DNA of 42,112 nt from Burkholderiales bacterium (GTDB taxonomy: Bacteria > Pseudomonadota > Gammaproteobacteria > Burkholderiales > CAIKXV01). Of this stretch, positions 31,495 to 42,112 are shown piece after piece (position 1 is the first letter of the stretch; every line of letters begins with the position of its first letter). The translations under genes were made by a program, and so were the position numbers. Location of the stretch: positions 1 through 42,112 of the forward strand of contig JACMMK010000321.1 of assembly GCA_014379045.1 (NCBI GenBank), given 5' to 3'. Below the pieces are notes generated by a model. That model saw only the letters and a list, made by a program, of their open reading frames with translations, searched no databases and was not told where the DNA came from.

Positions 31495-32484
31495 CTACTC
31501 GAGCTTGATCCCGGTCTCCTTGATCAGTCGGGCGAGACGCTTGACGTCTTCGGCCATCAATTGGCCGAGTTGCTCGGGGGTGCTCGTTTCAATATCGACG
31601 CCCTGGCTCGAGAGCTTCTCCCTGATCTCCGGGGAATCGAGAATCTTGTTGAGCTCGGCATTCAAGCGCACGATGATCGGGCGCGGCGTGCCTGCCGGCG
31701 CGACGAACCCGAACCACGACTGGTAGTTGAAACCCGGTACCACCTCCCCGAGCGCAGGAATATCGGGCGCCGCACCGCTGCGCTTGGTGCCACTGACGCC
31801 GATCGCCTTGATCTTGCCCGCCTTCAGCTGCGGCAGCCCCGCCAGCAGCGGCAGCACGGCCACGGGCACTTCGCCGCCGATCAACGCCGGCAACGTCGCC
31901 CCCGCACCCTTGTAGGGGACATGGTTCAACTTCACCTTGGCCATCACCTGGAACAGTTCAGCGGCGAGGTGATTCGGCCCACCGTATCCCGACGACCCGT
32001 AGTCGATCGTGCCCGGCTTCGCGCGTGCAAGCGCGAGAAACTCTTTCGGCGTGCTCGCAGGAAAGCTCGGGTTGGCCGCGAGCAGCGTCATCGAAGCGCC
32101 GATCAGGCCGATCGGTGCGAATGCCTTGACCACATCCCATGAGTATTTGTTGATGGCGCCGGCGATCGACACCACCGGCTGAGCGAGATAGATCGTATGC
32201 CCGTCGGGATTCGCCTTCGCGGCGATCTCCATGCTGACCATGCCGCCGGCGCCGGGGCGTCCGTCGATCACTACGCGCTCGTTAAGGCGCTCACCGAGTC
32301 GCTCGCCGAGCACTCGTGCGATGACGTCGGACACGCCGCCCGGGAGAAAACCCGTGATCAGGCGCAGCGGACGGTCGGGGTACTTCTGAGACTGCGCCAG
32401 CGCCGGGGTCGAGACTGCCGCGGCAAGCAGCAACGCAACCGCGCCGAGAAGCGTGGAGCGGCGAAGAAAACAATGATCGATCAT
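31495..32484 (-). CDS. Bug/TctC-family substrate-binding protein
   Basis: Signal peptide STLLGAVALLLAAAVSTPALA, then YPDRPLRLITGFLPGGVSD...DGRPGAGGMV. Confidence 0.9.
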   Translation of the reverse strand: MIDHCFLRRSTLLGAVALLLAAAVSTPALAQSQKYPDRPLRLITGFLPGGVSDVIARVLGERLGERLNERVVIDGRPGAGGMVSMEIAAKANPDGHTIYLAQPVVSIAGAINKYSWDVVKAFAPIGLIGASMTLLAANPSFPASTPKEFLALARAKPGTIDYGSSGYGGPNHLAAELFQVMAKVKLNHVPYKGAGATLPALIGGEVPVAVLPLLAGLPQLKAGKIKAIGVSGTKRSGAAPDIPALGEVVPGFNYQSWFGFVAPAGTPRPIIVRLNAELNKILDSPEIREKLSSQGVDIETSTPEQLGQLMAEDVKRLARLIKETGIKLE

Positions 32485-32531
32485 CTATGACTCCTGAATG
32501 AACCCAATGAAAACCTGCGCTGCGAAACGCA

Positions 32532-33377
32532 TCACGCAGCCTTGAAGGGTGCACGCGCGTCGTACTCGTCCGCGGCCTGCGCCATCGTCACGAAGCGCGC
32601 TCCGCCGGCCGTCAACGCTGCAATCAGTCTTTCGAGCACGAGCATCCGGTGCCCGCGTCCGATCACGAACGGGTGGAAGGTGTAGGTCAGCACGCCCCAG
32701 TCGACGACCGCGCGCTGCATGTAGGTGAAGTCGGCTATCCAGTTGTCGACGACCAGATTCGCGTTCGAGTTGCCCGGCAGCAGCGTCTGCGGCGTGCGGA
32801 TGAACTCGAATACGGGATAGTCGTCGAGCGACCACGATATCGGCAGCTCGATCAGCCGCGTGGCAGGGCCGAACACCGCAGGTTGCTCGAGTTCGATCAC
32901 GTCGCCCTGGCGCACCCGATACGGCGTGTAGTCGTCGCCCATCATCGAACTGTCGTACTCAAACCCGTGCGCGAGCAGCAGCTCGACCGAATGCGGCGAC
33001 AGATCCCACGACGGCGAACGATAACCGCGTGCCGGGTGCCCGGTCAGCCGGCGGATCGCCTCGTTCGCCCGCGCGAGCCCCGCTTCTTCCTGGTCGCGCG
33101 TCAGCGCCGCCGGCGGCACATGCGTCCAGCCGTGATGCGCGATCTCGTGCCCGGCAGCAAACACCGCTTCGCATTGCCCCGGATACGTCTCGAGCGTGTG
33201 TCCAGGTATGCACCAGGTACTGCGCACGTCGTGCCGACGCAGCAACTCGAGGATCCGCGGTGCTGCCACCGGGCCGAACTCGCCGCGCGAGATCGGCGAC
33301 GGCGAGGTCATCCCACGCGAGATGAACCCCGACATCGCATCGAAGTCGAAGGTGATGCAGACGAGCAGGTCGGCCAT
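32532..33377 (-). CDS. Polysaccharide deacetylase (NodB-homology) family protein
   Basis: CITFDFD (Asp-Asp metal/catalytic motif), GHEIAHHGWTH and RGYRSPSW. ATG 33377 chosen as start. Confidence 0.85.
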   Translation of the reverse strand: MADLLVCITFDFDAMSGFISRGMTSPSPISRGEFGPVAAPRILELLRRHDVRSTWCIPGHTLETYPGQCEAVFAAGHEIAHHGWTHVPPAALTRDQEEAGLARANEAIRRLTGHPARGYRSPSWDLSPHSVELLLAHGFEYDSSMMGDDYTPYRVRQGDVIELEQPAVFGPATRLIELPISWSLDDYPVFEFIRTPQTLLPGNSNANLVVDNWIADFTYMQRAVVDWGVLTYTFHPFVIGRGHRMLVLERLIAALTAGGARFVTMAQAADEYDARAPFKAA

Positions 33378-33489
33378 GCGGCGGGCGCGACCGAGGTCGC
33401 GCGCTGAGGGAGAACCCCGATACTTACCACAAAGCAAGTGCAATGCCGGGCTGGAGTGTCCGGTAAAACGCTACTCGAGGGCTAGCCGC

Positions 33490-34485
33490 TTAGTCGACGC
33501 GGGCGCCGGTCAGCGCAATCAGCTTCCCGTACTTCTCGAAATCGGCCTTGAGGCGTGCACCGAACTCCTCCGGCGTACCGCCCCACGGATCGAGCGCCTG
33601 CCCCGACAGGGTCAGCGCAACGTCGGGCACCTTCAGCGCGCGGTTGACCTCGGTGTTGAGCCGGTCGACAACGGTACGCGGCGTCGCAGCGGGCGCGAGC
33701 AGGCCGATCCACGGGCTGAGCTCGTAGCCGGGCACGCCCGCCTCGGCGATCGTCGGCACCTCCGGCAACGTCGGCGAACGACGCGCCGACGCGACGCCCA
33801 GCGCGCGCAGACGCCCCGCCCTGATATGCGGGATCACCGAGGCGATCGTCGCGAGCGAGGCCTGCGTTTCACCCCCGAGCAACCCCACCACCTGGGGCCC
33901 ACCGCCCTTGTACGGGACGTGCACCAGCCGGGTGCCGGTGGTCGACGCGAGCAACGCCATCGACAGATGCGGAATGCTGCCGTTGCCCGCGGTCGAATAC
34001 ATCAGCTGTTCAGGGCGGCTGCGCACCAGCGCGATGAACTCCTTGACGCTCTTTACCGGCAGCGAGGGATGCACGACCAGTACCGCGGTCTGCGCCGTCA
34101 ACAGCGCGACCGGTGCGAAATCGCGCAGCGTCTCGTACGGCAGACTGCGGTACAGGTGCGCGTTCGCGACGTGCGTGACCGACTGCACCAGCAGCGTGTA
34201 ACCGTCGGGCAACGACTTGGCGACGTAGTCGGTACCGATGGTGCCGCCGGCACCGCCGCGATTGTCGATGATGAAGGTCTGCCCCGTCGCTTCACCGACC
34301 TTCTGCATCACGGTGCGTCCGGCGATGTCGTTGGCACCCCCGGGCGGCCAGGGGATCACGACGCGCACCGGCTTCGCCGGGTAGCCTTGGGCGTAGGTGA
34401 TGCCGTTGAGCATCCAGGGCAGCGCCGCACTCACGATCCCAGCCAGGATCTGCAGACACCTGCTCGTCGAGTCGTTCCAAGTCAT
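33490..34485 (-). CDS. Bug/TctC-family substrate-binding protein
   Basis: Signal peptide (CLQILAGIVSAALPWMLNGITYA), then YPAKPVRVVIPWPPGGAND...DNRGGAGGTIG. The 672-aa track ORF is an off-frame extension. Confidence 0.9.
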   Translation of the reverse strand: MTWNDSTSRCLQILAGIVSAALPWMLNGITYAQGYPAKPVRVVIPWPPGGANDIAGRTVMQKVGEATGQTFIIDNRGGAGGTIGTDYVAKSLPDGYTLLVQSVTHVANAHLYRSLPYETLRDFAPVALLTAQTAVLVVHPSLPVKSVKEFIALVRSRPEQLMYSTAGNGSIPHLSMALLASTTGTRLVHVPYKGGGPQVVGLLGGETQASLATIASVIPHIRAGRLRALGVASARRSPTLPEVPTIAEAGVPGYELSPWIGLLAPAATPRTVVDRLNTEVNRALKVPDVALTLSGQALDPWGGTPEEFGARLKADFEKYGKLIALTGARVD

Positions 34486-34505
34486 CGGGCACCTGTAAAA
34501 CGGGT

Positions 34506-35447
34506 TTATTTGCGCAGGCCGAGTCCAGTCGCGGTCGACAATGCGATCTCGAACTCTGCGGCGAGCGCCTGATGGAACGCGTGCGGACCCAGGTAGGCCG
34601 TGGCAGCACCCATGGCTTCGATGCGCGAGACTAACGCAGGGTCGGTGGTCGCGGCGCGAACTGCAGAATCCCAGGTGTCGACGATCGCCGCAGGCAAGCC
34701 GGGGGGACCGACGATACCCGTCCAACCCAGAAGATCGAAACTCGGGAAACCCGCCTCGGCCGCGGTTGGGATCTGCGGCCACGCATTCACACGCACCGTG
34801 CCGCTGAGTGCGAGCGCGCGCAGGCGCCCGTCCGCAAGTAACGCCCGCATCTCGGCCAGATACTGGCCGGCAAAGTCGGTACGCCCGTCGATCACTGCAT
34901 CGAGTATTGCAGCACCGCCGTGGAAGGTCAGCCGTTGCAATCGCGCGAGGTCGATGCCGGCGGAATCGAGCAGTCGTGCGAGCGCGAGGATCGACGCACC
35001 CCCGGTGCCGGAGGTGCCGATGCGGTAACTTTCGGGCGCGCTGCGCACCTGTTCGAACAATGCGCCGAGCGAATGCCACTCGGCTTCGCCGCGCACGACG
35101 AAGGCAAGCGCGCTTGCGCTGACCCGGGCGACGAACGTCGGCGCGTCCCATCGATACGGCAATGCACTGTCGATGGCCGGATTCTGGGTCGCCTGCCCGG
35201 TCGCGCTCACCATCATCGTGTTGCCGTCGGGCGCCGCCCCCAATATCTCGAGCGTGCCGGTCGTGCCGCCGGCACCGGCGACGTTGCGTACCGCGACCGG
35301 GCGGTGCCACGCGTGCTGCAGATGGTCGGCGAGTACGCGCGCGGTGAGGTCGGTCACGCCGTCGGGGGGGAACGGGACGATCAGGTCGATCGGGCGCTGG
35401 TCGGTTCCCGCATCGCTGATGTGCATAGGCATGGTGGCGGCAGTCAA
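34506..35447 (-). CDS. Bug/TctC-family paralog lacking any signal peptide (possibly 5'-truncated or decaying)
   Basis: The family core begins at residue about 18 (RPIDLIVPFPPDGVTD...RNVAGAGGT). An in-frame TAA lies 2 codons upstream of the TTG start, so no N-terminal extension is possible. Alternative ATG starts at 35432 and 35426. Confidence 0.7.
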   Translation of the reverse strand: MTAATMPMHISDAGTDQRPIDLIVPFPPDGVTDLTARVLADHLQHAWHRPVAVRNVAGAGGTTGTLEILGAAPDGNTMMVSATGQATQNPAIDSALPYRWDAPTFVARVSASALAFVVRGEAEWHSLGALFEQVRSAPESYRIGTSGTGGASILALARLLDSAGIDLARLQRLTFHGGAAILDAVIDGRTDFAGQYLAEMRALLADGRLRALALSGTVRVNAWPQIPTAAEAGFPSFDLLGWTGIVGPPGLPAAIVDTWDSAVRAATTDPALVSRIEAMGAATAYLGPHAFHQALAAEFEIALSTATGLGLRK

Positions 35448-35600: not shown

Positions 35601-38600
35601 TTACAGCCCTTTCAACACCTCAGGCGTGAATGGATTACGACCCGCCTTGAGATCGGCTATCCACTCTTTACGCTGAGCTTTTTCGCGTTCGAACCTTGAA
35701 CCTGGATCGTTCATGAAAGCTTCGAAGTCCCGGATCGCATCGGCCCGTCGTCCGGTCAATGCGCGTGCCAGGCCACGACTGTCGACATACATCGCACGGC
35801 CGTCCGAAAGCTTGACTGCGCGTTCGCACGCGCCGTCGACGACCGCAGCGGCATAGCCGAAGCGACTGCTGAACCAGCAAAGGTCGTTCCACGTGTCGGC
35901 GTCGACCCGTTTGGGATTGATCGTGAAGACCTTGTTGTACAGCTCGATGGCTTCCCCGTACTTGCGCTCATCGAAGTACTTCCTTGCTTCCGCCGCTTCC
36001 AGCGCCCCTCTGCATTCGCCGCCGCTGATCTGAAATCGCAGGCATTCCTCGGTGCTGAATGCGCGGGTCACGCGCGCCCGCGCGATGTTCACAAGATCGG
36101 CATCGGTCTGCGGATGAGCTCGCACGGTCCTGTCTGCGCCCGCGGTAAGAACCACTTTCTGCGTGGGATGGACTGCTACATCCTGCACGTTACCGTTATG
36201 GCCCTTCAGTGCCCGTTCCTCCTTGCCACTCTTGAGGTCCCAGAGACGCGCCGTTCGATCGTCGCTATGAGTGGACAGATAGCTGTTCTTGCCGATCGTG
36301 ACGAACGCAACACCTCTGACCGATGCGCTGTGACCGACCATCCCGACCAAGTCCTTACCACTTTGCACGTCCCAGATCCTGGCGGTCCGGTCGTCACTGC
36401 CGGTCGCCAGACGTGCACCGTCGGCACTGAAGGCCACGGCGGTGACTGAATCCCTGTGCCCGACGAGCAAACGCATCTGCCTGCCATCGGCCGCGTCCCA
36501 CAATCTCGCCGTGTCATCCCAACTGCCCGTTGCCACGAACCTGCCGTCGGCGCTGAATTCGACGCTCAGCACAGCCCCCTCATGGCCAACCAGCAACAGC
36601 GGCTCCCTGCCCCCGTCCACATCCGAAATCTGCACCGTGTGGTTGTCCATGGCTACGGCGACTCGTTTTCCGTCACGACTGAACGCGATCGCGTTGATCT
36701 TGCTGATGTGAGGAGGAAGTTCGCGTCTGGGCTTTACGGCGTCGTCTACGCTCCAGACCTTGACGGTATTGCCACCCGCACTGGCGAGAACCTTCCCGTC
36801 TGCACTGAAGGCAACTGTTGCCACTTGCGGGTGCGCAAACCTTCTCAACTCGACGCCCTTGAACGCGTCCCAGATCACGGCCCACTCACCGCTCGCTGTC
36901 GCGACGCGTGAAACGTCCGGGCTGAACTTGGCCGCGGTCACCGTGGCGATGGCGGCGCTTCCGAAGTTCGCCATTGGCGCTTTGCCGCCGATCGCCCACA
37001 ATTTCGCGGTGCGATCCGCACTGCCGGTGACCAGATGCCTGCCGTCACCGCTGAAAGCGACGCCGTTGATGGGGCCTTGATGGGCCGTGAACGTGTTCAA
37101 TTCCTTGCCGGTGTCCGCATCCCATACCCGTGCCGTGTTATCGACGCTTCCTGAGGCGATGCGAGTACCGGATGCGTCGAATGCAACCGTGCGTACCGCA
37201 TTCGTATGCCCACGAAGAATGGCCGCGTCCTTGAGAGTCGACGCTTCCTTGCTCGCGCCCGGATCGCGCATCGCCTCCGTCCCCGGCTTCCTGTCCCAGA
37301 TCGCTTCCTTGCCCGTTTTCGTATCCCAGATCCTTACCATGCGGTCTTCGCCTGCCGTGGCGAGCTTCGTACCGTTAGGGTTGAAAGCGACTGCGGTGAC
37401 GACGCCGCTGTGGCCGCTCAGGGTTATCAGCTCTTTGCCGCTGTCGAGATCCCACAGCTTGGCAGTGCCATCGTCGCTCGCAGTGGCGAGGCGGCCGCTT
37501 TCCCGGCTGAGCGCGACCGCGCGGACCCGGCCGTTGTGACCGCGGAAGGTTTGGATCTCCTTGCCGGTGCCGACTTCCCAAAGTTTTGCAGTCCGGTCGT
37601 CACTGGCCGTCGCCAGCCGCGTTCCATCTTGCGTGAAGGCGACGCTATTGATGGTGTCCCGATGACCGGCAAACTTGCGCACCTCGGTACCGGTCGTCGC
37701 GTCCCACAATCTTGCGGTGTCGTCGTAGCTACCGCTCGCGATATACCGCCCATCTTCACTGAAGGCGACCCCCAGAACGCGGGCGCCATGGCCGCGCAGA
37801 GTAGCCACTTCTTTCCCGGTCGAGGTATCCCAGACCTTCACGGTGTTGTCTTCGCCTGCGGTCGCGAGTCGGTGCCTCGCGGAATCGAGGGCAACACCGA
37901 AGACGCTGCCTGTGTGCCCCGCGCCAGTGCTCGGCGTGAGCTGCACGCGGGTGGATTGCACCGCTTCGCCGAGGAGTGTCATCGCTTCCGGTGTCTTGGA
38001 TAACGAGAGCGCTTCCAAGGCAAGCAGCAATGTCAGGTCAAGATTGTCCTGCCCCACCTTCTCGCCCGCGTAGGTCAGCTTGAAGGATGAGGTCTGGTTG
38101 CGTGCCTCGACGGCCGCTGTCGCAGCGTCACGCGCGTTTCTCAGGGCGCCTTCAAGTCGTAGGTTTGTTTTCTTTTCCTTTTCCCTGGCATCGTTTGCCG
38201 CATTCGCGTTTGCGTTTGCCGTAGCCGCGAGATAGTCGGCCCTGACTGCATGGGCTTGCGCGGTGACCTCGTTCTGCATCGCCTTCTCGGCGTTTTTCCT
38301 CGCCTCTTCGGCCTTTTCCTCCGCCAGAGTCGCACTCTGGCTTGCCTGCACCTGCATACGGTCGGCGGTCTGCTTTAGGTTGAACATGGACACCGAGGCG
38401 ACCGTCGCGGCCAGGCCCACCCCGACGGCGAAGATCGTCACCATGCGACTACGCCTGGCATTGCTCTCGAGCGTGGCCGCGCGAATTTTTGCAGTTTCCG
38501 CCTCGGCCTCGAGCTGGCGGCGTTCGAGCTCTTTCGTACGAAGCTCCTCCGCCTGCGCCCGCTGCACTCGCGCGTCCTCAGCGGCGATCGAGGCTTCCAT

Positions 38601-40208
38601 AAAGCTCATCAGTTCGGCAGGCGCGACGCGGTAGCGCTCGCTGTCGTGCTTCAACTGAAGCAGCTGAAAGAGCCGCTCGCAGCTCGCGCGATCGCGCAAC
38701 GCTTCGTTCAGCGCCGACTCGCGCATACGTGCGAGCGGCTCGCCTTGTACGAGTCGGCGCTCGGAACGATCGCTCTGCAGCCAGCTCTGCGTGCCCTTGA
38801 GAAGCGTCACGAACTCTTCGAAGAGTTCCGCTTCGCGGTCGATCAGTTCCTGGAAATGTCTCCAGCCGCGGATGAAGGCTTCATGGAATACCTTGATGGT
38901 GACCTGCTCCGGGTTCTCGTCGTCCCAGAGGATGTAGTCGCACGGAGGCAGGAATCCGGCCACGAGCGGCCTGGGATCGGCTCCGCCGAGCAGGGCCGCA
39001 GCCTCCTCGCGTCTGAGCCGCTGCTGCGTATACATGCCGGTGTTCGGGTCTTTGAACGCGAGCCGCCGCAACAGCGAGTTGAAGCATTTCTTCTTTTCGC
39101 CGTCGAACCGGTCGAATATCGCTTGCGCCCAGTTTTCGAGGCACAAACGCAGCACGTTTCCCTGCGGCGGCAGCGGGGGCGCTGTTGCTTCCGATGTGGC
39201 GCTCACCGCGCGCTCGAGGTCGGCCATCGTGGCACGGTCGGGAACGTCCAGCCCCTCCGACCTCCCGCGCGCGCAAGCGGCTTCCCACAGCCGCGCGAGG
39301 AGGTGCTGCAGCAACGCCAGATGGTCAGGGTCGGAATGGATCTGCTCGACGTCGTGCTGTACCCGCGCCAACACCGCTTCGTCGAAGCCGAAGTTGGCGG
39401 GGACTTTTCGCTGGCCGGCGCCTGCCCGGGCAAGCATCCGCAGATATCGACGCGGCGGCTTCTCGATCGTTTCGTCGATTTCCGACGGGTCGAGCCGCCG
39501 CACGAGGTACGAGGCCTTGTTTATCGCGTCGGGTAGCCGAAGGAACGCCGCGCAGTCGTTCAGATGCTCGCTGCGCATCGTGATCACGAGATAGATGCGC
39601 GGGTGCGGTGAATAGTAGTGGTCCAGCACCCGCTCGACCAACGTGGTGCACTCAGGAACATCCTTGTTGCTCCAGTGGAACAGTTCCTCGAACTGGTCGA
39701 TCACGAGCATGAAGTTCGCACGTTCCGCACTCGGTCCAGCCGGCAGATCGAGCCGGTCGGCAAACGTGTTGATCAGCGTGCCGAATCCGCCGGACTTGTT
39801 GAGCGCCGCCACCGCCTCCGCCTGATAGCGAGTGCGTTCCTCGTCCGAGCTCACGCGCAGAAGGCGGACGAACTTGCGCGCCAGCCGGTCGATCGGCGTT
39901 TCACCTGTCCCGACAGGCGCGTCACGCTTAGCCATATTGGTGCCGGGCGTGGCCAGGATCGGCACCCAGAAATCGCCGGCTTCGGCGATACGATAGCCGC
40001 GCAATTCGGGGATGACGCCGGCGCGCACGAGCGACGACTTTCCGGAGCCGGAACCTCCGAGCAGCGCCACGAAGCGCGTCGCGCAAAGCCGAAGGATGAC
40101 TTCCTCGACCTGCGAACTGCGCCCGAAGAAGATCGAGGATTCCCTATCCTGGAACGGGCGCAGTCCCGGGTAGGGCGAACGAAATTCCAGAGTGCCGGAT
40201 TCAGCCAT
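35601..40208 (-). CDS. 1535-aa STAND-type P-loop NTPase (nSTAND-like N-terminus) - coiled coil/TM/coiled coil - 14 WD40 repeats - TPR-like C-terminal domain
   Basis: N-terminal SPYPGLRPFQDRESSIFFGR, Walker A LLGGSGSGKSS (K57 codon 40038-40040) and Walker B FMLVIDQFEELF (D171 codon 39696-39698). Hydrophobic 21-mer at aa 589-611. 14 GH...WD units. GAGAGAG RBS 6 nt before ATG 40208. Confidence 0.9.
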   Translation of the reverse strand: MAESGTLEFRSPYPGLRPFQDRESSIFFGRSSQVEEVILRLCATRFVALLGGSGSGKSSLVRAGVIPELRGYRIAEAGDFWVPILATPGTNMAKRDAPVGTGETPIDRLARKFVRLLRVSSDEERTRYQAEAVAALNKSGGFGTLINTFADRLDLPAGPSAERANFMLVIDQFEELFHWSNKDVPECTTLVERVLDHYYSPHPRIYLVITMRSEHLNDCAAFLRLPDAINKASYLVRRLDPSEIDETIEKPPRRYLRMLARAGAGQRKVPANFGFDEAVLARVQHDVEQIHSDPDHLALLQHLLARLWEAACARGRSEGLDVPDRATMADLERAVSATSEATAPPLPPQGNVLRLCLENWAQAIFDRFDGEKKKCFNSLLRRLAFKDPNTGMYTQQRLRREEAAALLGGADPRPLVAGFLPPCDYILWDDENPEQVTIKVFHEAFIRGWRHFQELIDREAELFEEFVTLLKGTQSWLQSDRSERRLVQGEPLARMRESALNEALRDRASCERLFQLLQLKHDSERYRVAPAELMSFMEASIAAEDARVQRAQAEELRTKELERRQLEAEAETAKIRAATLESNARRSRMVTIFAVGVGLAATVASVSMFNLKQTADRMQVQASQSATLAEEKAEEARKNAEKAMQNEVTAQAHAVRADYLAATANANANAANDAREKEKKTNLRLEGALRNARDAATAAVEARNQTSSFKLTYAGEKVGQDNLDLTLLLALEALSLSKTPEAMTLLGEAVQSTRVQLTPSTGAGHTGSVFGVALDSARHRLATAGEDNTVKVWDTSTGKEVATLRGHGARVLGVAFSEDGRYIASGSYDDTARLWDATTGTEVRKFAGHRDTINSVAFTQDGTRLATASDDRTAKLWEVGTGKEIQTFRGHNGRVRAVALSRESGRLATASDDGTAKLWDLDSGKELITLSGHSGVVTAVAFNPNGTKLATAGEDRMVRIWDTKTGKEAIWDRKPGTEAMRDPGASKEASTLKDAAILRGHTNAVRTVAFDASGTRIASGSVDNTARVWDADTGKELNTFTAHQGPINGVAFSGDGRHLVTGSADRTAKLWAIGGKAPMANFGSAAIATVTAAKFSPDVSRVATASGEWAVIWDAFKGVELRRFAHPQVATVAFSADGKVLASAGGNTVKVWSVDDAVKPRRELPPHISKINAIAFSRDGKRVAVAMDNHTVQISDVDGGREPLLLVGHEGAVLSVEFSADGRFVATGSWDDTARLWDAADGRQMRLLVGHRDSVTAVAFSADGARLATGSDDRTARIWDVQSGKDLVGMVGHSASVRGVAFVTIGKNSYLSTHSDDRTARLWDLKSGKEERALKGHNGNVQDVAVHPTQKVVLTAGADRTVRAHPQTDADLVNIARARVTRAFSTEECLRFQISGGECRGALEAAEARKYFDERKYGEAIELYNKVFTINPKRVDADTWNDLCWFSSRFGYAAAVVDGACERAVKLSDGRAMYVDSRGLARALTGRRADAIRDFEAFMNDPGSRFEREKAQRKEWIADLKAGRNPFTPEVLKGL
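35604..36113 (-). other. TPR-like helical C-terminal domain of the STAND protein (aa 1366-1535)
   Basis: KYFDERKYGEAIELYNKVFTINPK, SRGLARALTGRRADAIRDFEAFM, and a tail KEWIADLKAGRNPFTPEVLKGL. Contains the only 4 Cys residues C-terminal to the TM helix. Confidence 0.55.
36114..37925 (-). repeat. 14 tandem WD40 repeats (two predicted 7-bladed propellers), aa 762-1365
   Basis: Units of about 42-43 aa of the form GH..V..VAFS.DG..LAT.S.D.TA.LWD..(T/S)GKE. Blades 8-10 are degenerate. A roughly 25-aa insert sits after blade 5 (37224-37300). Confidence 0.85.
38376..38444 (-). other. Predicted single transmembrane helix inside the STAND protein (aa 589-611)
   Basis: NARRSR-MVTIFAVGVGLAATVASVSMF-NLKQ. 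Flanked on both sides by long E/A/R/K-rich helical (coiled-coil-like) segments. Confidence 0.6.
39219..40181 (-). other. STAND NTPase module of the 1535-aa protein (aa ~10-330)
   Basis: Walker A/B as above. The PY.GL..F...D...FFGR motif immediately before the P-loop is the signature I recall for the 'novel STAND' NTPases that are usually fused to WD40/TPR arrays. The extent of the module is approximate. Confidence 0.6.
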
Positions 40209-40239
40209 GGCGCGCTCTCTCAGCCGCAGGGCCCGCAGG

Positions 40240-41403
40240 TCAGGCAGCGGTGCGTTTCTCCAGGATGTCTTTCAGGAAGCTCCTGAGCTTCCTGGTCTCG
40301 CTCGGGTCTTCCTGCATCACCGGCTCGCAATTGTCGAATCCGACGACGCTCCATCCCAGCGCCTCAGCGGGCTTGCCCGGCTTCTGAGGGGGGCGCAGAC
40401 AGGCGACGAGTCCCGGGGCGATCACGTCGGTGGGCGGCAGCAGCTCTTCGATCTTGTCGATGTTTTTTCGCAACGCGTGCGAGTCTTTCTGGCCCCAGAG
40501 CAGAACGACCCCGTCGGCGTCACTCAGCTGGTTGTGGCGCGGATCGATTTCGTCGACCGGCAGACCGCGCACACGCATTCGCAGCGGGTGATCGTTCTGC
40601 GCTTCGGTATTCACATCCTTCCAGAGCTGCGCGATGCGTCGGCCGAGAGGCTTCCATTCGTCGAGCTCGAGCGGATTGCTTTCGATGTAGATCTGCACCG
40701 GACTCGACGGTTCGGGCGCCCGGTCGGCAACGGGCGCAGCTGCCGCATCGACCGGCTGCTCTCTAACGATCGGCGCGTTTCTGGCGACATTGGCGTTGTC
40801 GCACAGGAGTTCCGTCCCCTTGACTGCCGGCGGCATCTTCGCATCGAGGCTCTCTCGAATACTGCGCACGAGGTCGTCGGCGAGGGTCCCCACGAGGTCC
40901 TGGAACCTGGCCGTGAGCGCCCCCGTGTCGATGTACGGACGTATCGCCTTGTTCTGCTCGTTGTAACACGGCACCCAGACCTGATCCGGCAGCGCCAGGC
41001 GCTGCCATGCGGGGTTCAACTGGACTCTGGCACCGACGTCGTTTCGCAGCGCGAGTATGTACAGGCGGCGCTGCATGCCATCGGCGCCGAAATGGCTCTT
41101 GAAAAACTCGAGCTCTTCCACGCACCACTCGGAGCCGAGATAGTTGTCGCCCGCTACGACGATCAGCGCGAACGACTGCTGGATCCGGTTGCGAAGCTCG
41201 CTGCTCAGTCCGCCCCTGATCGGACCGTTCTCCTGACTCAGGTGCGATGGCTTGCCACCACCCGGCGCCCGCGCGAGGTCACCTTGCAGCTTCTTCTGGA
41301 GCTCGTTCCTGAAGTAGGTGACCCAGCTGAAGTTCGCGGGATCGTCGGCATGCGCGTAACTGATGAATGTGCTGTAGACACAATCGGCGTACCTTGTTGT
41401 CAT
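40240..41403 (-). CDS. TIR-domain protein with uncharacterised C-terminal domain
   Basis: ATG 41403 (GAGG RBS) gives MTTRYADCVYSTFISYAHADD (TIR beta-A). ALIVVAGDNYLGSEWCVEELEFF is the S.WC..EL motif, with putative catalytic Glu97 at codon 41113-41115. Stop lies 31 nt before the STAND gene start. Confidence 0.85.
   Translation of the reverse strand: MTTRYADCVYSTFISYAHADDPANFSWVTYFRNELQKKLQGDLARAPGGGKPSHLSQENGPIRGGLSSELRNRIQQSFALIVVAGDNYLGSEWCVEELEFFKSHFGADGMQRRLYILALRNDVGARVQLNPAWQRLALPDQVWVPCYNEQNKAIRPYIDTGALTARFQDLVGTLADDLVRSIRESLDAKMPPAVKGTELLCDNANVARNAPIVREQPVDAAAAPVADRAPEPSSPVQIYIESNPLELDEWKPLGRRIAQLWKDVNTEAQNDHPLRMRVRGLPVDEIDPRHNQLSDADGVVLLWGQKDSHALRKNIDKIEELLPPTDVIAPGLVACLRPPQKPGKPAEALGWSVVGFDNCEPVMQEDPSETRKLRSFLKDILEKRTAA
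40984..41379 (-). other. TIR domain (aa ~9-140)
   Basis: FISYAH strand, alpha-A WVTYFRNELQKKL, and the conserved SEWCVEEL segment. Boundaries are approximate. Confidence 0.75.
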
Positions 41404-41520
41404 GGCCTCACATGCTCCGTGATCACCGTCAGGTCGCACCGGCTAGTTGCGGCAGACGCGCACACTGACTTGCCTTCGCCTAGCGAGCAGATAGCATACG
41501 CCGGCATTGCCATTCGCTGC

Positions 41521-41560
41521 TAGTCCTTTCGGACTAACCGCGGTCGCGAGCGACCCGCGG
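41521..41560 (-). terminator. Tandem hairpins between the upstream ORF and the TIR gene (possible transcript boundary)
   Basis: ccgcggtcg-cgag-cgac(c)cgcgg (9 bp with 1 bulge, 41538-41560) and tagtcc-tttc-ggacta (6 bp, 41521-41536). No clear U-tract. Confidence 0.3.
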
Positions 41561-41585
41561 CTCGTCGCGAAGCACTACTCGTCGA

Positions 41586-42041
41586 TCAGGTATTTCTCGC
41601 TCCCGTTCCCAGCAGGCGAATGCCCGGAATCGCGCAGAACTCGACCAACCACGGCATCGGCGTTTCGATCGGCACGTGCACGCGATCACTTTGACCCCTG
41701 CGGGCCGCGCCTTGATCGAAGAGGCAATTCCACTCTGGAGCGCGGCGCAGGACGAAACGCGGCTGCGTCTCGCACCTGATCCTTCCTGGCGAGAAACTCC
41801 GCCGCACCCTGGACGGTCTTGGTGAAGAGTCGCTCACGGTATCCAGGTCCCGCAGATGAACACGATCGGAGAGTATCCAATCGTGCTCATTCCGATGATC
41901 GGCGTACCGCTCACCGGAGCCATTCACATCATGGCGATCGACAGCCTCTGGCGGCGCTGGCGCGCAGAGCGCAGGCCGCAGAACTTCAGACAGGCGACTG
42001 CGACTGGATAACGACCGCCAATACCGCTTGGTCGGCCGCAT
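41586..42041 (-). CDS. Hypothetical ORF, no recognisable family (possibly spurious or a gene remnant)
   Basis: Only an open frame of 151 aa. The C-terminal half has GC-rich third positions, while the N-terminal half is Arg/Ser-rich low complexity. No motif recognised in any of the three minus frames. Confidence 0.25.
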   Translation of the reverse strand: MRPTKRYWRSLSSRSRLSEVLRPALCAPAPPEAVDRHDVNGSGERYADHRNEHDWILSDRVHLRDLDTVSDSSPRPSRVRRSFSPGRIRCETQPRFVLRRAPEWNCLFDQGAARRGQSDRVHVPIETPMPWLVEFCAIPGIRLLGTGARNT

Positions 42042-42112
42042 CGGTTGTGGTTACTCTTGACGCCGATGGACTGGACCCGATCGATCGATGCCTACTGTGA
42101 GCGCCTCGACCC

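What the first reader, a model, noticed from the sequence alone, without database searches (positions are those of the whole stretch)
38109..38612. STAND NTPase and its WD40 sensor array appear to lie on opposite sides of the membrane
A 21-residue hydrophobic segment (MVTIFAVGVGLAATVASVSMF, aa 589-611) is embedded in a long charged helical region. The sequence before it is ...ELRTKELERRQLEAEAETAKIRAATLESNARRSR, and after it NLKQTADRMQ...EEKAEEARKNAEKAMQNE....

The positive-inside rule (ARRSR on the N side) places the NTPase in the cytoplasm. It places the two WD40 propellers and the TPR tail outside.

The cysteine distribution supports this. There are 8 Cys in the 588 aa before the helix. There are none in the roughly 770 aa after it, which covers the whole coiled coil and all 14 WD40 repeats. 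There are then exactly 4 in the C-terminal domain (EEC, GEC, DLC, GAC), which could form two disulfides.

Characterised STAND defence sensors detect cytoplasmic phage proteins. A periplasm-facing sensor coupled across the membrane to a cytoplasmic NTPase/TIR output would be a different sensing mode, for example envelope damage, phage adsorption or injection, or an extracellular cue.
Basis: partly seen in the sequence, partly recalled or inferred. Interest (0 to 1): 0.7.

Follow-up and report, generated by a model that had tools for sequence, protein, structure and literature searches.

The report
Membrane-spanning STAND NTPase with periplasmic WD40 sensor
A bacterial NLR-like ATPase, paired with a TIR enzyme gene, is predicted to span the inner membrane so that its WD40 sensor faces the periplasm; hundreds of relatives keep this layout, which suggests an unstudied way of monitoring the cell envelope.

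Summary
The 1535-aa ORF (35601-40208, minus strand) is made of:
- an nSTAND1 NTPase;
- a charged helix;
- one 21-residue hydrophobic segment (aa 589-609);
- an Ala/Glu/Lys-rich stalk;
- 14 WD40 repeats (7+7);
- a 3-TPR tail with 4 Cys.

The helix is the hallmark of a large family, mostly from Burkholderiales. 117 of 120 full-length cluster representatives have exactly one such segment at the same place. K/R is richer on the N side in 109 of 117. Cys counts after the helix are even in 110 of 117, whereas counts before it have random parity. A TIR gene sits immediately upstream in nearly all loci.

N-in/C-out topology is therefore well supported by computation, though no experiment exists.

The "Cys-free propellers" argument is weak: 13 of 120 related WD40 arrays are Cys-free, regardless of whether they have a TM. 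The four tail Cys are invariant.

TM-plus-double-WD40 cassettes are common on kinases and sigma factors, so export of such arrays is not exotic.

Most relatives carry a different ~480-aa Cys-paired domain of unknown fold. They also carry a secreted Trp-rich cyclophane peptide and its radical-SAM maturase. The window's variant lacks both.

The function is inferred: periplasmic surveillance coupled to TIR NADase activity. Verdict: a new variant of a known kind.

The parts
40240..41439 (-). TIR-domain protein gene. The ORF is 399 aa from a GTG start. NCBI's annotated start gives 387 aa, beginning at window 41403. The TIR domain is about aa 25-134 of the ORF. After a disordered linker comes a second alpha/beta (flavodoxin/REC-like) domain.
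   Evidence: Pfam TIR PF01582 scores 22.8 bits against a cut-off of 21.3. TIR_2 scores 26 bits against 28. P0385 is 100% identical and is named a TIR protein by NCBI. The SxWCxxEL motif, including the Glu, is invariant in 24 homologs. The AF2 model has pLDDT 64.6 and Foldseek gives only generic flavodoxin-like matches. The gene ends 31 bp upstream of the STAND gene.
35601..40208 (-). The whole nSTAND1-TM-WD40-TPR gene (1535 aa plus stop codon).
38760..40175 (-). nSTAND1 NTPase module (aa 12-483). Walker A GGSGSGKS is aa 51-58 (40035..40058). Walker B LVIDQFEE is aa 168-175 (39684..39707).
   Evidence: PF20703 scores 184 bits against a cut-off of 27.1, E 8e-54.
38445..38759 (-). Cytoplasmic helical, highly charged linker (aa 484-588). 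It ends in the K/R-rich juxtamembrane stretch ARRSR.
   Evidence: Sequence; 5 K/R in the last 15 residues.
38382..38444 (-). Predicted single transmembrane helix (aa 589-609, MVTIFAVGVGLAATVASVSMF). It is rich in small residues (G/A/S/T).
   Evidence: KD19 maximum is 1.97, unique in the protein. The segment is conserved at this position in 117/120 representatives and in 116 of the 120 listed closest homologs; the rest are short or just under the cut-off.
37920..38381 (-). Post-membrane stalk (aa 610-763). It is an Ala/Glu/Lys/Asn-rich helical segment followed by a helical cap (LDLTLLLALEAL...) before the propellers.
   Evidence: Composition. It has no Pfam match. A weakly homologous stalk is present in L001 and L005.
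36996..37919 (-). WD40 propeller 1 (repeats 1-7, aa 764-1071). There is a 28-aa insertion between repeats 5 and 6.
   Evidence: PF00400 scores 409 bits. Repeat map.
36084..36947 (-). WD40 propeller 2 (repeats 8-14, aa 1088-1375). Repeats 8-10 are degenerate.
35604..36083 (-). C-terminal 3-TPR domain (aa 1376-1535) with four invariant Cys (aa 1389, 1399, 1444, 1461), which may form two disulfides.
   Evidence: TPR_2 E 2e-5. PDB sequence matches to consensus TPR and to the RPAP3 and PP5 TPR domains. The Cys are invariant in the window, L005, P0241 and P0121.

Best explanation
**What it is.** This is a two-gene module. A TIR protein is the probable NAD+-cleaving output. The second protein is a single-pass (N-in, C-out) inner-membrane STAND NTPase.

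The nSTAND1 NTPase and its charged helical linker sit in the cytoplasm. One helix (aa 589-609) crosses the membrane. A ~150-residue stalk then holds two seven-bladed WD40 propellers and a probably disulfide-stapled 3-TPR tail in the periplasm.

**Likely mechanism (inferred).**
1. A periplasmic ligand binds the propeller/TPR sensor. Candidates are an envelope-damage product, a phage or bacteriocin component in transit, or a delivered toxin.
2. The membrane separates sensor from NTPase, so the sensor cannot fold back on it as in soluble STANDs. Activation would instead come from ligand-driven clustering or re-packing of the stalk and the small-residue-rich TM helices.
3. This brings the cytoplasmic nSTAND1 modules together for NTP-dependent oligomerisation.
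4. The oligomer scaffolds the TIR protein into its active assembly, which depletes NAD+ or makes a signal.

**What is shown:** the domain content, the operon arrangement, the conservation of the TM helix, the charge bias, the Cys pattern and the TIR linkage.

**What is inferred:** actual membrane insertion, the ligand, oligomerisation, TIR activity and the biological role.

I put about 0.85 on the topology alone and about 0.5 on an immune or conflict role. The confidence given is for the whole statement.
For: - **Domains:**
- **Unique hydrophobic segment:**
- **Family-wide single TM at the same position:** 116 of the 120 listed closest homologs, 117/120 representatives less than 50% identical to each other, and genomic homologs down to 28% identity.
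- **Positive-inside bias:** the N flank has more K/R than the C flank in 115/119 close homologs and 109/117 representatives.
- **Cys parity:** counts after the TM are even in 117/118 and 110/117. Counts before it are 56 even and 62 odd.
- **Paired Cys in the main family:** the Cys in the PWSTCAL motif always occurs with a C-terminal partner (97 with both, 0 with the motif Cys alone, 33 with neither), which indicates a disulfide.
- **WD40 subgroup (window, L005, P0241, P0121, P0001):** the TM is conserved in character but not in sequence, the propellers are Cys-free, and the four tail Cys are invariant.
- **Related WD40 arrays:** 95 of the 120 nearest arrays follow exactly one TM helix, usually after a kinase. 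A kinase must be cytoplasmic, so these arrays are predicted to be exported.
- **TIR linkage:** a TIR gene lies immediately upstream in essentially every locus that has upstream DNA. The catalytic-type Glu is invariant.
- **Secreted partner in relatives:** many relatives co-encode a peptide with a Sec-signal-like N terminus. It is therefore predicted to be periplasmic, which fits a periplasmic receptor domain.
- **Host:** the organisms are Gram-negative Burkholderiales.
Against: - There are no experimental topology data, and no dedicated topology predictor could be run.
- The window's helix is only moderately hydrophobic (KD 1.97, Ala/Gly/Val/Ser-rich). My rough sum of the Hessa biological hydrophobicity scale, recalled from memory, is about +1 kcal/mol, which is marginal.
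- TM-linked WD40 relatives show no even-Cys bias (49/98 even), so disulfide logic does not confirm export of the propellers themselves.
- No PADLOC defence model matches.
- The five genomic contexts examined are housekeeping, not defence islands.
- The TIR assignment is marginal by Pfam score, and the AF2 model has low confidence.
Confidence: 0.6

Rival explanations
1. The topology is the same, but this is not an immune or abortive system. It would be a transmembrane receptor for an endogenous or environmental periplasmic cue, such as envelope stress, a kin signal, or (in relatives) the co-encoded secreted cyclophane peptide. The TIR protein would make a regulatory nucleotide rather than kill the cell.
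For: The cassette sits among housekeeping genes in five contexts. It is concentrated in one bacterial order, which fits vertical inheritance. Most relatives carry their own secreted RiPP precursor and maturase, which looks like a ligand-receptor pair. The nearest WD40 arrays belong to signalling kinases and sigma factors.
Against: STAND-plus-TIR pairing is typical of conflict systems (PMC8195603, PMC7159879). The module's flanks differ between the window and L005/L001, as expected for a mobile cassette. The window's variant has no peptide or maturase gene.
Confidence: 0.27
2. The hydrophobic segment is not a constitutive membrane span. The protein would be cytosolic or peripheral. The helix would be buried in the resting state, or would insert only on activation as a latent membrane-disrupting element, leaving the WD40 sensor cytoplasmic as in Apaf-1 or Avs.
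For: The window's helix is only moderately hydrophobic and rich in small residues. Characterised STAND sensors are cytoplasmic. TM-linked WD40 relatives show no even-Cys bias.
Against: The sequence of the segment drifts freely while its hydrophobicity, its length of 19-26 uncharged residues and the K/R asymmetry are all kept. A buried packing helix would conserve specific residues instead. Even and co-varying Cys after the helix point to an oxidising compartment. The first 30 residues after the helix have a net negative charge, which is compatible with export (sequence).
Confidence: 0.08
3. Inverted or artefactual reading: the topology is N-out/C-in, or two genes have been fused by an assembly or frameshift error.
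For: None found.
Against: A P-loop NTPase would have no NTP supply outside the cell, and the K/R bias points the other way. The same uninterrupted architecture occurs in independent assemblies: L005 at 1506 aa, P0241 at 1543 aa and P0001 at 1242 aa.
Confidence: 0.01

Closest known systems
nSTAND1-clade STAND NTPases of prokaryotic conflict systems (Pfam PF20703; named in Kaur et al. 2021, PMC8195603)
   Same: The NTPase module is a clear member, at 184 bits with intact Walker A and B motifs. As in those systems, it is associated with a TIR effector and has a repeat-type C-terminal sensor.
   Different: The described nSTAND1 systems are treated as cytoplasmic and are coupled to effectors through EAD or Death-like adaptor domains. 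Here no N-terminal adaptor domain is recognisable, the TIR protein is a separate gene, and a conserved single TM helix separates the NTPase from the sensor. I found no paper describing this TIR plus nSTAND1-TM family.
Antiviral STANDs (Avs1-5 and newer clades, bNACHT)
   Same: The logic is the same three-part one: effector, NTPase and sensor. TIR is a known Avs/bNACHT effector. WD40 sensors are reported in some clades (PMC13581612).
   Different: Those proteins sense phage proteins in the cytoplasm with a sensor that contacts the NTPase. No PADLOC model matches this protein. [quoted passage not shown]
Bacterial Hanks-type Ser/Thr kinase-TM-WD40 and sigma-70-TM-WD40 proteins
   Same: These hold the nearest relatives of the window's WD40 array, at 30-45% identity. 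They have the same layout: a cytoplasmic signalling domain, one TM helix, a linker of about 64 aa, and a double propeller.
   Different: The output domain is a kinase or sigma factor, not a STAND NTPase with a TIR partner. The window's stalk is longer, about 155 aa.
Apaf-1 (apoptosome)
   Same: A STAND NTPase followed by two WD40 propellers that bind the activating ligand.
   Different: Apaf-1 is entirely cytosolic and its propellers clamp the ligand next to the NTPase. It has no membrane span, and its effector is recruited through a CARD domain.
Animal Toll-like receptors (analogy only)
   Same: A repeat-built extracytoplasmic sensor, a single TM helix and TIR-based cytoplasmic signalling triggered by receptor clustering.
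   Different: The sensor is not homologous (LRR versus WD40). TLRs have no NTPase and their TIR domain is fused. This is a similarity of logic, not of descent.
Cyclophane ('triceptide') RiPP cassettes: GrrM/OscB radical-SAM maturases and the FxsA/B/C system with the TIR-like FxsC
   Same: Relatives of the window's gene sit in cassettes with a GrrM/OscB-like maturase (TIGR04261, 328 bits) and a (W-x-N/K)n precursor. The TIR protein weakly matches FxsC_Nterm.
   Different: The window's own locus has neither the maturase nor the precursor. The FxsC match is far below the cut-off (24 bits against 130).

Membership tests
nSTAND1 STAND NTPase (PF20703) | Profile match above Pfam's gathering score | tested here: met
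   184.2 bits against a cut-off of 27.1; aa 12-483 cover profile positions 1-378 of 379.
nSTAND1 STAND NTPase (PF20703) | Intact P-loop Walker A and Walker B motifs | tested here: met
   GGSGSGKS at aa 51-58 and LVIDQFEE at aa 168-175. Both motifs contain columns that are invariant in alignment A1.
Single-pass N-in (type II) inner-membrane protein | One uncharged hydrophobic stretch of at least 19 residues, KD of 1.6 or more, and no other such segment | tested here: met
   aa 589-609, KD19 1.97; the next best window is 1.39. 115 of 117 representatives have no second segment.
Single-pass N-in (type II) inner-membrane protein | Positive-inside charge bias | tested here: met
   The window has 5 vs 2 K/R. 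Family means are 6.2 vs 1.9 and 5.2 vs 2.1.
Single-pass N-in (type II) inner-membrane protein | Experimentally demonstrated insertion and orientation | not testable with these tools
   This needs PhoA/LacZ/GFP fusions or protease accessibility assays. No DeepTMHMM or TOPCONS was available.
Exported, disulfide-bonded domain | Even, conserved and co-varying Cys beyond the membrane span | tested here: met
   The window has 4 tail Cys, invariant in 4 of 4 relatives with a tail. In the family, counts are even in 117/118 and 110/117, and the Cys pair is gained and lost together: 97 with both, 0 with the motif Cys alone, 33 with neither. The disulfides themselves were not observed.
WD40 beta-propeller | Tandem WD40 repeats sufficient for closed propellers | tested here: met
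   PF00400 scores 409 bits. There are 14 repeats arranged 7+7.
TIR domain (NADase type) | Profile match and a conserved catalytic-type Glu | tested here: met
   PF01582 scores 22.8 bits against 21.3. PF13676 scores 26 against 28, just below the cut-off. SxWCxxEL with the Glu is invariant in 24 homologs.
TIR domain (NADase type) | TIR fold confirmed by structure comparison | tested here: inconclusive
   The AF2 model has pLDDT 64.6. Foldseek returns only generic flavodoxin/REC/Rab-like hits with E of 1e-3 or weaker.
Avs / known anti-phage STAND systems | Match to a curated defence-system model | tested here: not met
   The only PADLOC hit is a spurious P-loop match (mad3, E 0.004, 21 residues).
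Thoeris | A ThsB-type TIR together with a ThsA-type (or other described) effector | tested here: not met
   The ThsB hits are weak (E 1e-4). No Thoeris effector gene is present; the neighbour is the STAND gene.
Cyclophane RiPP-linked TIR/STAND cassette (as in relatives) | A radical-SAM maturase and a (W-x-N/K)n precursor adjacent to the TIR and STAND genes | tested here: not met
   The window has no such motif in any frame and no rSAM similarity. The contig ends 673 bp upstream of the TIR gene, so a more distant copy cannot be excluded. L005 and L001 also lack both.

The most novel reading that the evidence does not exclude
These proteins form an unrecognised class of trans-envelope NLR-like receptors: a hybrid with the engine of an NLR and the layout of a Toll-like receptor. 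The sensor would survey the periplasm. In the window it is a WD40/TPR module. In most relatives it is a new Cys-stapled fold, possibly loaded with a co-encoded secreted Trp-cyclophane peptide that acts as bait or co-ligand. The signal would pass through one TM helix to a cytoplasmic nSTAND1 oligomer that switches on a TIR NADase. This would let bacteria respond to attack at the envelope (phage penetration, bacteriocins, T6SS effectors) before the cytoplasm is reached.
Probability: 0.4. Interest if true: 0.82.

Novelty: new variant of a known kind. Interest (0 to 1): 0.62.

Why it matters
All mechanistically studied bacterial STAND/NLR-like immune receptors bind their triggers in the cytoplasm, and their sensor domain directly gates the NTPase. 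A conserved family in which a membrane separates sensor and NTPase would have three consequences:
- It implies a different activation principle: clustering transmitted through a TM helix, as in receptor kinases or TLRs.
- It opens the periplasm as a surveillance compartment for NLR-type immunity.
- It offers a tractable system of two genes (four in most relatives) to test this.

The link in most relatives to a secreted radical-SAM cyclophane peptide would also give that RiPP class a candidate receptor and a biological role.

Tried and rejected
- **Cys-free propellers as evidence of export:** rejected as weak. 13 of 120 related WD40 arrays are Cys-free. Cys density and parity do not differ between TM-linked and TM-less arrays.
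- **PADLOC and NCBIfam scans of both proteins:** no informative family.
- **Fold of the main family's post-TM domain:** the AF2 model is confident (pLDDT 86.8). Foldseek against the PDB (best E 1e-3, TM-score 0.2 or less) and a profile search of PDB sequences found nothing significant.
- **AF2 and Foldseek of the TIR protein:** low confidence and only generic flavodoxin-like matches, so the TIR fold was not independently confirmed.
- **Search of the window for a radical-SAM gene or a (W-x-N/K)n precursor:** none found.
- **Promoter/terminator scan and tRNA scan around the locus:** nothing above background.
- **Synteny with the closest loci:** only the TIR-STAND pair is shared.
- **Defence-island context:** not seen in five loci.
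- **Literature searches for a described TM-anchored nSTAND1/TIR system:** only general remarks were found.
Full report
**1. What is at the coordinates**

The finding lies inside one long ORF on the minus strand, window 35601..40208, 1535 aa. Pfam assigns aa 12-483 to nSTAND1 (PF20703, 184 bits, E 8e-54). It assigns the region from about aa 760 to 1370 to WD40 (PF00400, 409 bits).

My own repeat profile finds 14 WD40 units at aa 764-1375, arranged 7+7. The last 160 residues match TPR models, and by sequence the 3-TPR modules of RPAP3 and PP5.

The segment MVTIFAVGVGLAATVASVSMF is aa 589-609 (window 38382..38444). It is the only 19-residue window in the protein with Kyte-Doolittle hydropathy of 1.6 or more: its maximum is 1.97 and the next best is 1.39.

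There are eight Cys up to aa 510, none from aa 511 to 1388, and four at aa 1389, 1399, 1444 and 1461.

Two small corrections apply:
- The helix ends at aa 609, not 611.
- The TIR domain is not part of this protein. It is encoded by the gene immediately upstream (40240..41439), which ends 31 bp before the STAND start codon, with a purine-rich stretch (GAGAGAG) upstream of the ATG.

**2. Is the hydrophobic helix more than chance?**

Yes. A search with aa 1-753 found 3039 proteins at E < 1e-5. 116 of the 120 listed best hits have a hydrophobic segment (KD 1.6 or more) at aa ~560-700, right after the NTPase. The other four are contig-truncated (593 and 586 aa) or fall just below the cut-off.

An index-free HMMER search of 1.84 billion cluster representatives found 758 hits at E < 1e-30. 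Of the 120 full-length proteins among the top 150, which are less than 50% identical to one another, 117 have the segment. The other three are marginal (KD 1.3-1.6). 115 of the 117 have no second segment.

Genomic homologs down to 28-38% identity also keep it.

Within the window's own WD40 subgroup, the helix is only 6/21 identical to the closest genomic homolog, L005. By contrast, the aligned NTPase-to-TM region (query residues 4-636) is 67% identical. Yet the helix stays uncharged and hydrophobic. Such drift is expected of a lipid-facing span, not of a buried packing helix.

**3. Orientation**

- In 119 close homologs, the 15 residues before the uncharged core carry 6.2 K/R on average, against 1.9 after it. 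The N side is richer in 115 and never poorer.
- In the diverse representatives the means are 5.2 vs 2.1. The N side is richer in 109, equal in 6 and poorer in 2.
- The window itself has 5 vs 2. The first 30 residues after the helix have a net negative charge, which is compatible with translocation.
- A P-loop NTPase needs cytoplasmic NTP.

Together these fix the topology as N-in/C-out.

**4. Cysteine evidence, with controls**

Family-wide, the number of Cys after the helix is even in 117/118 close homologs and 110/117 representatives (mostly 4, 6 or 8). The number before it is 56 even and 62 odd. An even-number bias is the known signature of exported, disulfide-bonded proteins; this rests on established knowledge and was not tested here.

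In the main family, the Cys of the PWSTCAL motif never occurs without a partner Cys near the C terminus: 97 proteins have both, 0 have the motif Cys alone, and 33 have neither. This co-variation points to a real disulfide.

For the window's subgroup, the four tail Cys are invariant in all four sequences that have the tail. The cytoplasmic Cys, by contrast, come and go.

Among the 120 nearest WD40 arrays, 13 are Cys-free. TM-linked arrays average 3.9 Cys and TM-less arrays 4.7. Parity in the TM-linked set is 49/98 even.

**5. The WD40 sensor module in context**

The nearest relatives of the window's double propeller are mostly not STAND proteins. 95 of 120 carry exactly one strong hydrophobic helix, a median of 64 residues upstream of the array. 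It typically follows a Ser/Thr kinase, a sigma-70-type domain or another AAA-like/nSTAND1 NTPase. Seven have only an N-terminal signal or anchor.

Because a kinase must be cytoplasmic, these arrays are predicted to be extracytoplasmic. A 'TM plus double WD40 propeller' is therefore a common, re-used sensor cassette. The window's protein is the case in which it has been joined to an nSTAND1 NTPase.

Some nSTAND1-WD40 proteins lack a TM (for example P0213), so the helix is not an obligatory part of the junction.

**6. The family and its cassette**

A scan of one genome per species returned 80 loci. Almost all are from Burkholderiales (Rubrivivax, Rhizobacter, Piscinibacter, Leptothrix and related MAGs). 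A few come from Rhodocyclales, Methylococcales and others.

A TIR gene lies immediately upstream of the STAND gene in essentially every locus that has upstream sequence.

In the TIR protein, PF01582 passes Pfam's cut-off marginally (22.8 bits against 21.3). NCBI names the identical protein a TIR-domain protein. The SxWCxxEL motif with its Glu is invariant. That Glu aligns with the catalytic Glu of TIR NADases by my reading, which I did not test.

The AF2 model of the TIR protein has low confidence (pLDDT 64.6) and Foldseek gives only generic flavodoxin-like hits. The fold is therefore not independently confirmed.

Only the window, L001/P0001, L005, P0121 and P0241 have the WD40 sensor.

All other relatives carry a ~480-aa domain with no Pfam match. 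AF2 models it confidently (pLDDT 86.8, pTM 0.88) as four helices plus a large beta-rich domain. It has no significant PDB neighbour.

About half of these relatives also encode two further genes:
- a GrrM/OscB-type cyclophane-forming radical-SAM/SPASM maturase (TIGR04261, 328 bits);
- a 65-135-aa precursor (as called) with a Sec-signal-like N terminus and C-terminal tandem W-x-N/K repeats.

A secreted modified peptide next to a receptor whose variable domain is predicted to be periplasmic is circumstantial support for the topology. It also suggests a ligand, bait or co-receptor relationship.

The window's variant has neither gene. Neither do L001 and L005, whose two-gene module sits in a different neighbourhood.

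**7. Genomic setting**

The window is a complete 42,112-bp MAG contig. The module is followed by three TctC/Bug-family receptor genes and ordinary metabolic genes. No tRNA, integrase or recognised defence gene is nearby.

The module's G+C is slightly lower than its surroundings: 62.7% against 65.2% for the whole window and about 68% for its neighbours.

Four other loci are also embedded in housekeeping genes. A defence role is thus suggested by the STAND-plus-TIR parts list, not by context.

**8. Mechanism**

Shown here:
- domain order;
- operon linkage;
- a conserved single span;
- orientation signals;
- paired Cys outside.

Inferred: the sensor cannot gate the NTPase by folding back on it. 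Activation must therefore pass through the helix. The most plausible route is ligand-driven clustering or re-packing of the Ala/Glu/Lys-rich stalk and the small-residue-rich TM helices. That would drive nSTAND1 oligomerisation and TIR assembly. The logic resembles receptor kinases and Toll-like receptors, with an NLR engine inserted.

I put about 0.85 on the topology and about 0.5 on an immune or conflict role. The overall confidence in the stated mechanism is 0.6.

**9. Prior knowledge**

- nSTAND1 was named by Kaur et al. 2021 (PMC8195603).
- The same group's 2020 survey notes membrane-proximal variants of other conflict systems (PMC7159879).
- Doré et al. 2024 predict periplasmic C-type-lectin (CLec) sensor domains for some STAND-type proteins targeted by diversity-generating retroelements (DGRs) (PMC10907252).
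- The 2026 survey of 589 STAND clades reports WD40 sensors but no periplasmic ones in the text I could search.

I found no description of this TIR plus nSTAND1-TM family or of its cyclophane-peptide linkage. The library searched is incomplete, so this is an absence of evidence only.

**10. Verdict**

One supporting argument (the Cys-free propellers) is discounted. The novelty is tempered, because TM-WD40 cassettes are common and periplasm-sensing STANDs have been mooted. This is best classed as a new variant of a known kind, with a testable and potentially important sensing mode. Interest 0.62.

Noticed in passing
Related loci, e.g. L002 2731-9222; L086 5833-12858; L087 5959-12225; precursors listed for about 30 loci: Most relatives carry a four-gene cassette. 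It consists of a precursor peptide (Sec-signal-like N terminus, a conserved 'ERxALEARV' helix and C-terminal tandem W-x-N/K repeats such as WNNWPNWSNWANW), a GrrM/OscB-type cyclophane radical-SAM maturase, a TIR protein and the nSTAND1-TM protein. In some loci the maturase lies downstream of the STAND gene instead. I found no description of this linkage in the papers searched.
   Followed up: partly
P0072 aa ~600-1073 (alignment A2, model m3162b4ac38fc): The ~480-aa post-membrane domain of the main family has no Pfam match. AF2 models it confidently (pLDDT 86.8, pTM 0.88) as four helices plus a beta-rich domain. It has no significant PDB neighbour and carries 4-8 positionally conserved, co-varying Cys. 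It appears to be an undescribed extracytoplasmic fold.
   Followed up: partly
Proteins P0121-P0240 (nearest WD40 arrays): 95 of 120 have exactly one strong TM helix, a median of 64 aa upstream of a double WD40 propeller. The helix follows Ser/Thr kinase, sigma-70 or AAA-like/nSTAND1 domains. A re-used 'TM plus double propeller' sensor cassette is therefore widespread in Acidobacteria/Planctomycetes-type metagenomic proteins.
   Followed up: partly
window 40240-41439 (-): The TIR protein has a second conserved C-terminal alpha/beta domain (about aa 236-387 in the 387-aa numbering, pLDDT 70-90, with the invariant motif DDADGVVLLWGRK). It resembles REC/flavodoxin-like folds (CpaE N-terminal domain, target TM-score about 0.55-0.59). 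It may be the docking domain for the NTPase. NCBI's start codon is 12 codons downstream of the first GTG.
   Followed up: partly
window 35604-36083 (-): By sequence the tail resembles three-TPR peptide-binding modules (RPAP3, PP5, CHIP). Two invariant Cys pairs are added (C1389/C1399 and C1444/C1461). It could bind a peptide terminus in the periplasm.
   Followed up: no
window 31495-35447 (-): Three paralogous TctC/Bug-family periplasmic receptor genes flank the module (31495-32484, 33490-34467, 34506-35447), with a polysaccharide deacetylase gene among them. This is typical of Burkholderiales. The surrounding genes are metabolic, and no mobile-element or defence genes were seen.
   Followed up: partly
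window 35601-41439 compared with the rest of the window: The TIR-STAND module has slightly lower G+C than its surroundings: 62.6-62.7% against 65.2% for the window and about 68% for the adjacent TctC genes. Its neighbours differ from those of the closest homologs (L001 and L005 have a BBE/FAD oxidase upstream). Both points are compatible with a transferable cassette.
   Followed up: partly
window 41440-42112: The 673 bp between the TIR gene and the contig end have no convincing ORF in any frame, and third-codon-position G+C (GC3) is only 0.64. The promoter and whatever lies upstream of the operon are not captured.
   Followed up: partly
main-family TM helices: Many main-family TM helices contain a conserved Pro or Pro-Pro in the outer half (for example LLPTALFSV, LAVPPLLFW). 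The WD40 subgroup instead has Gly/Ala/Ser-rich helices ending in MF(N/H). These may be different ways of transmitting a signal through the span.
   Followed up: no
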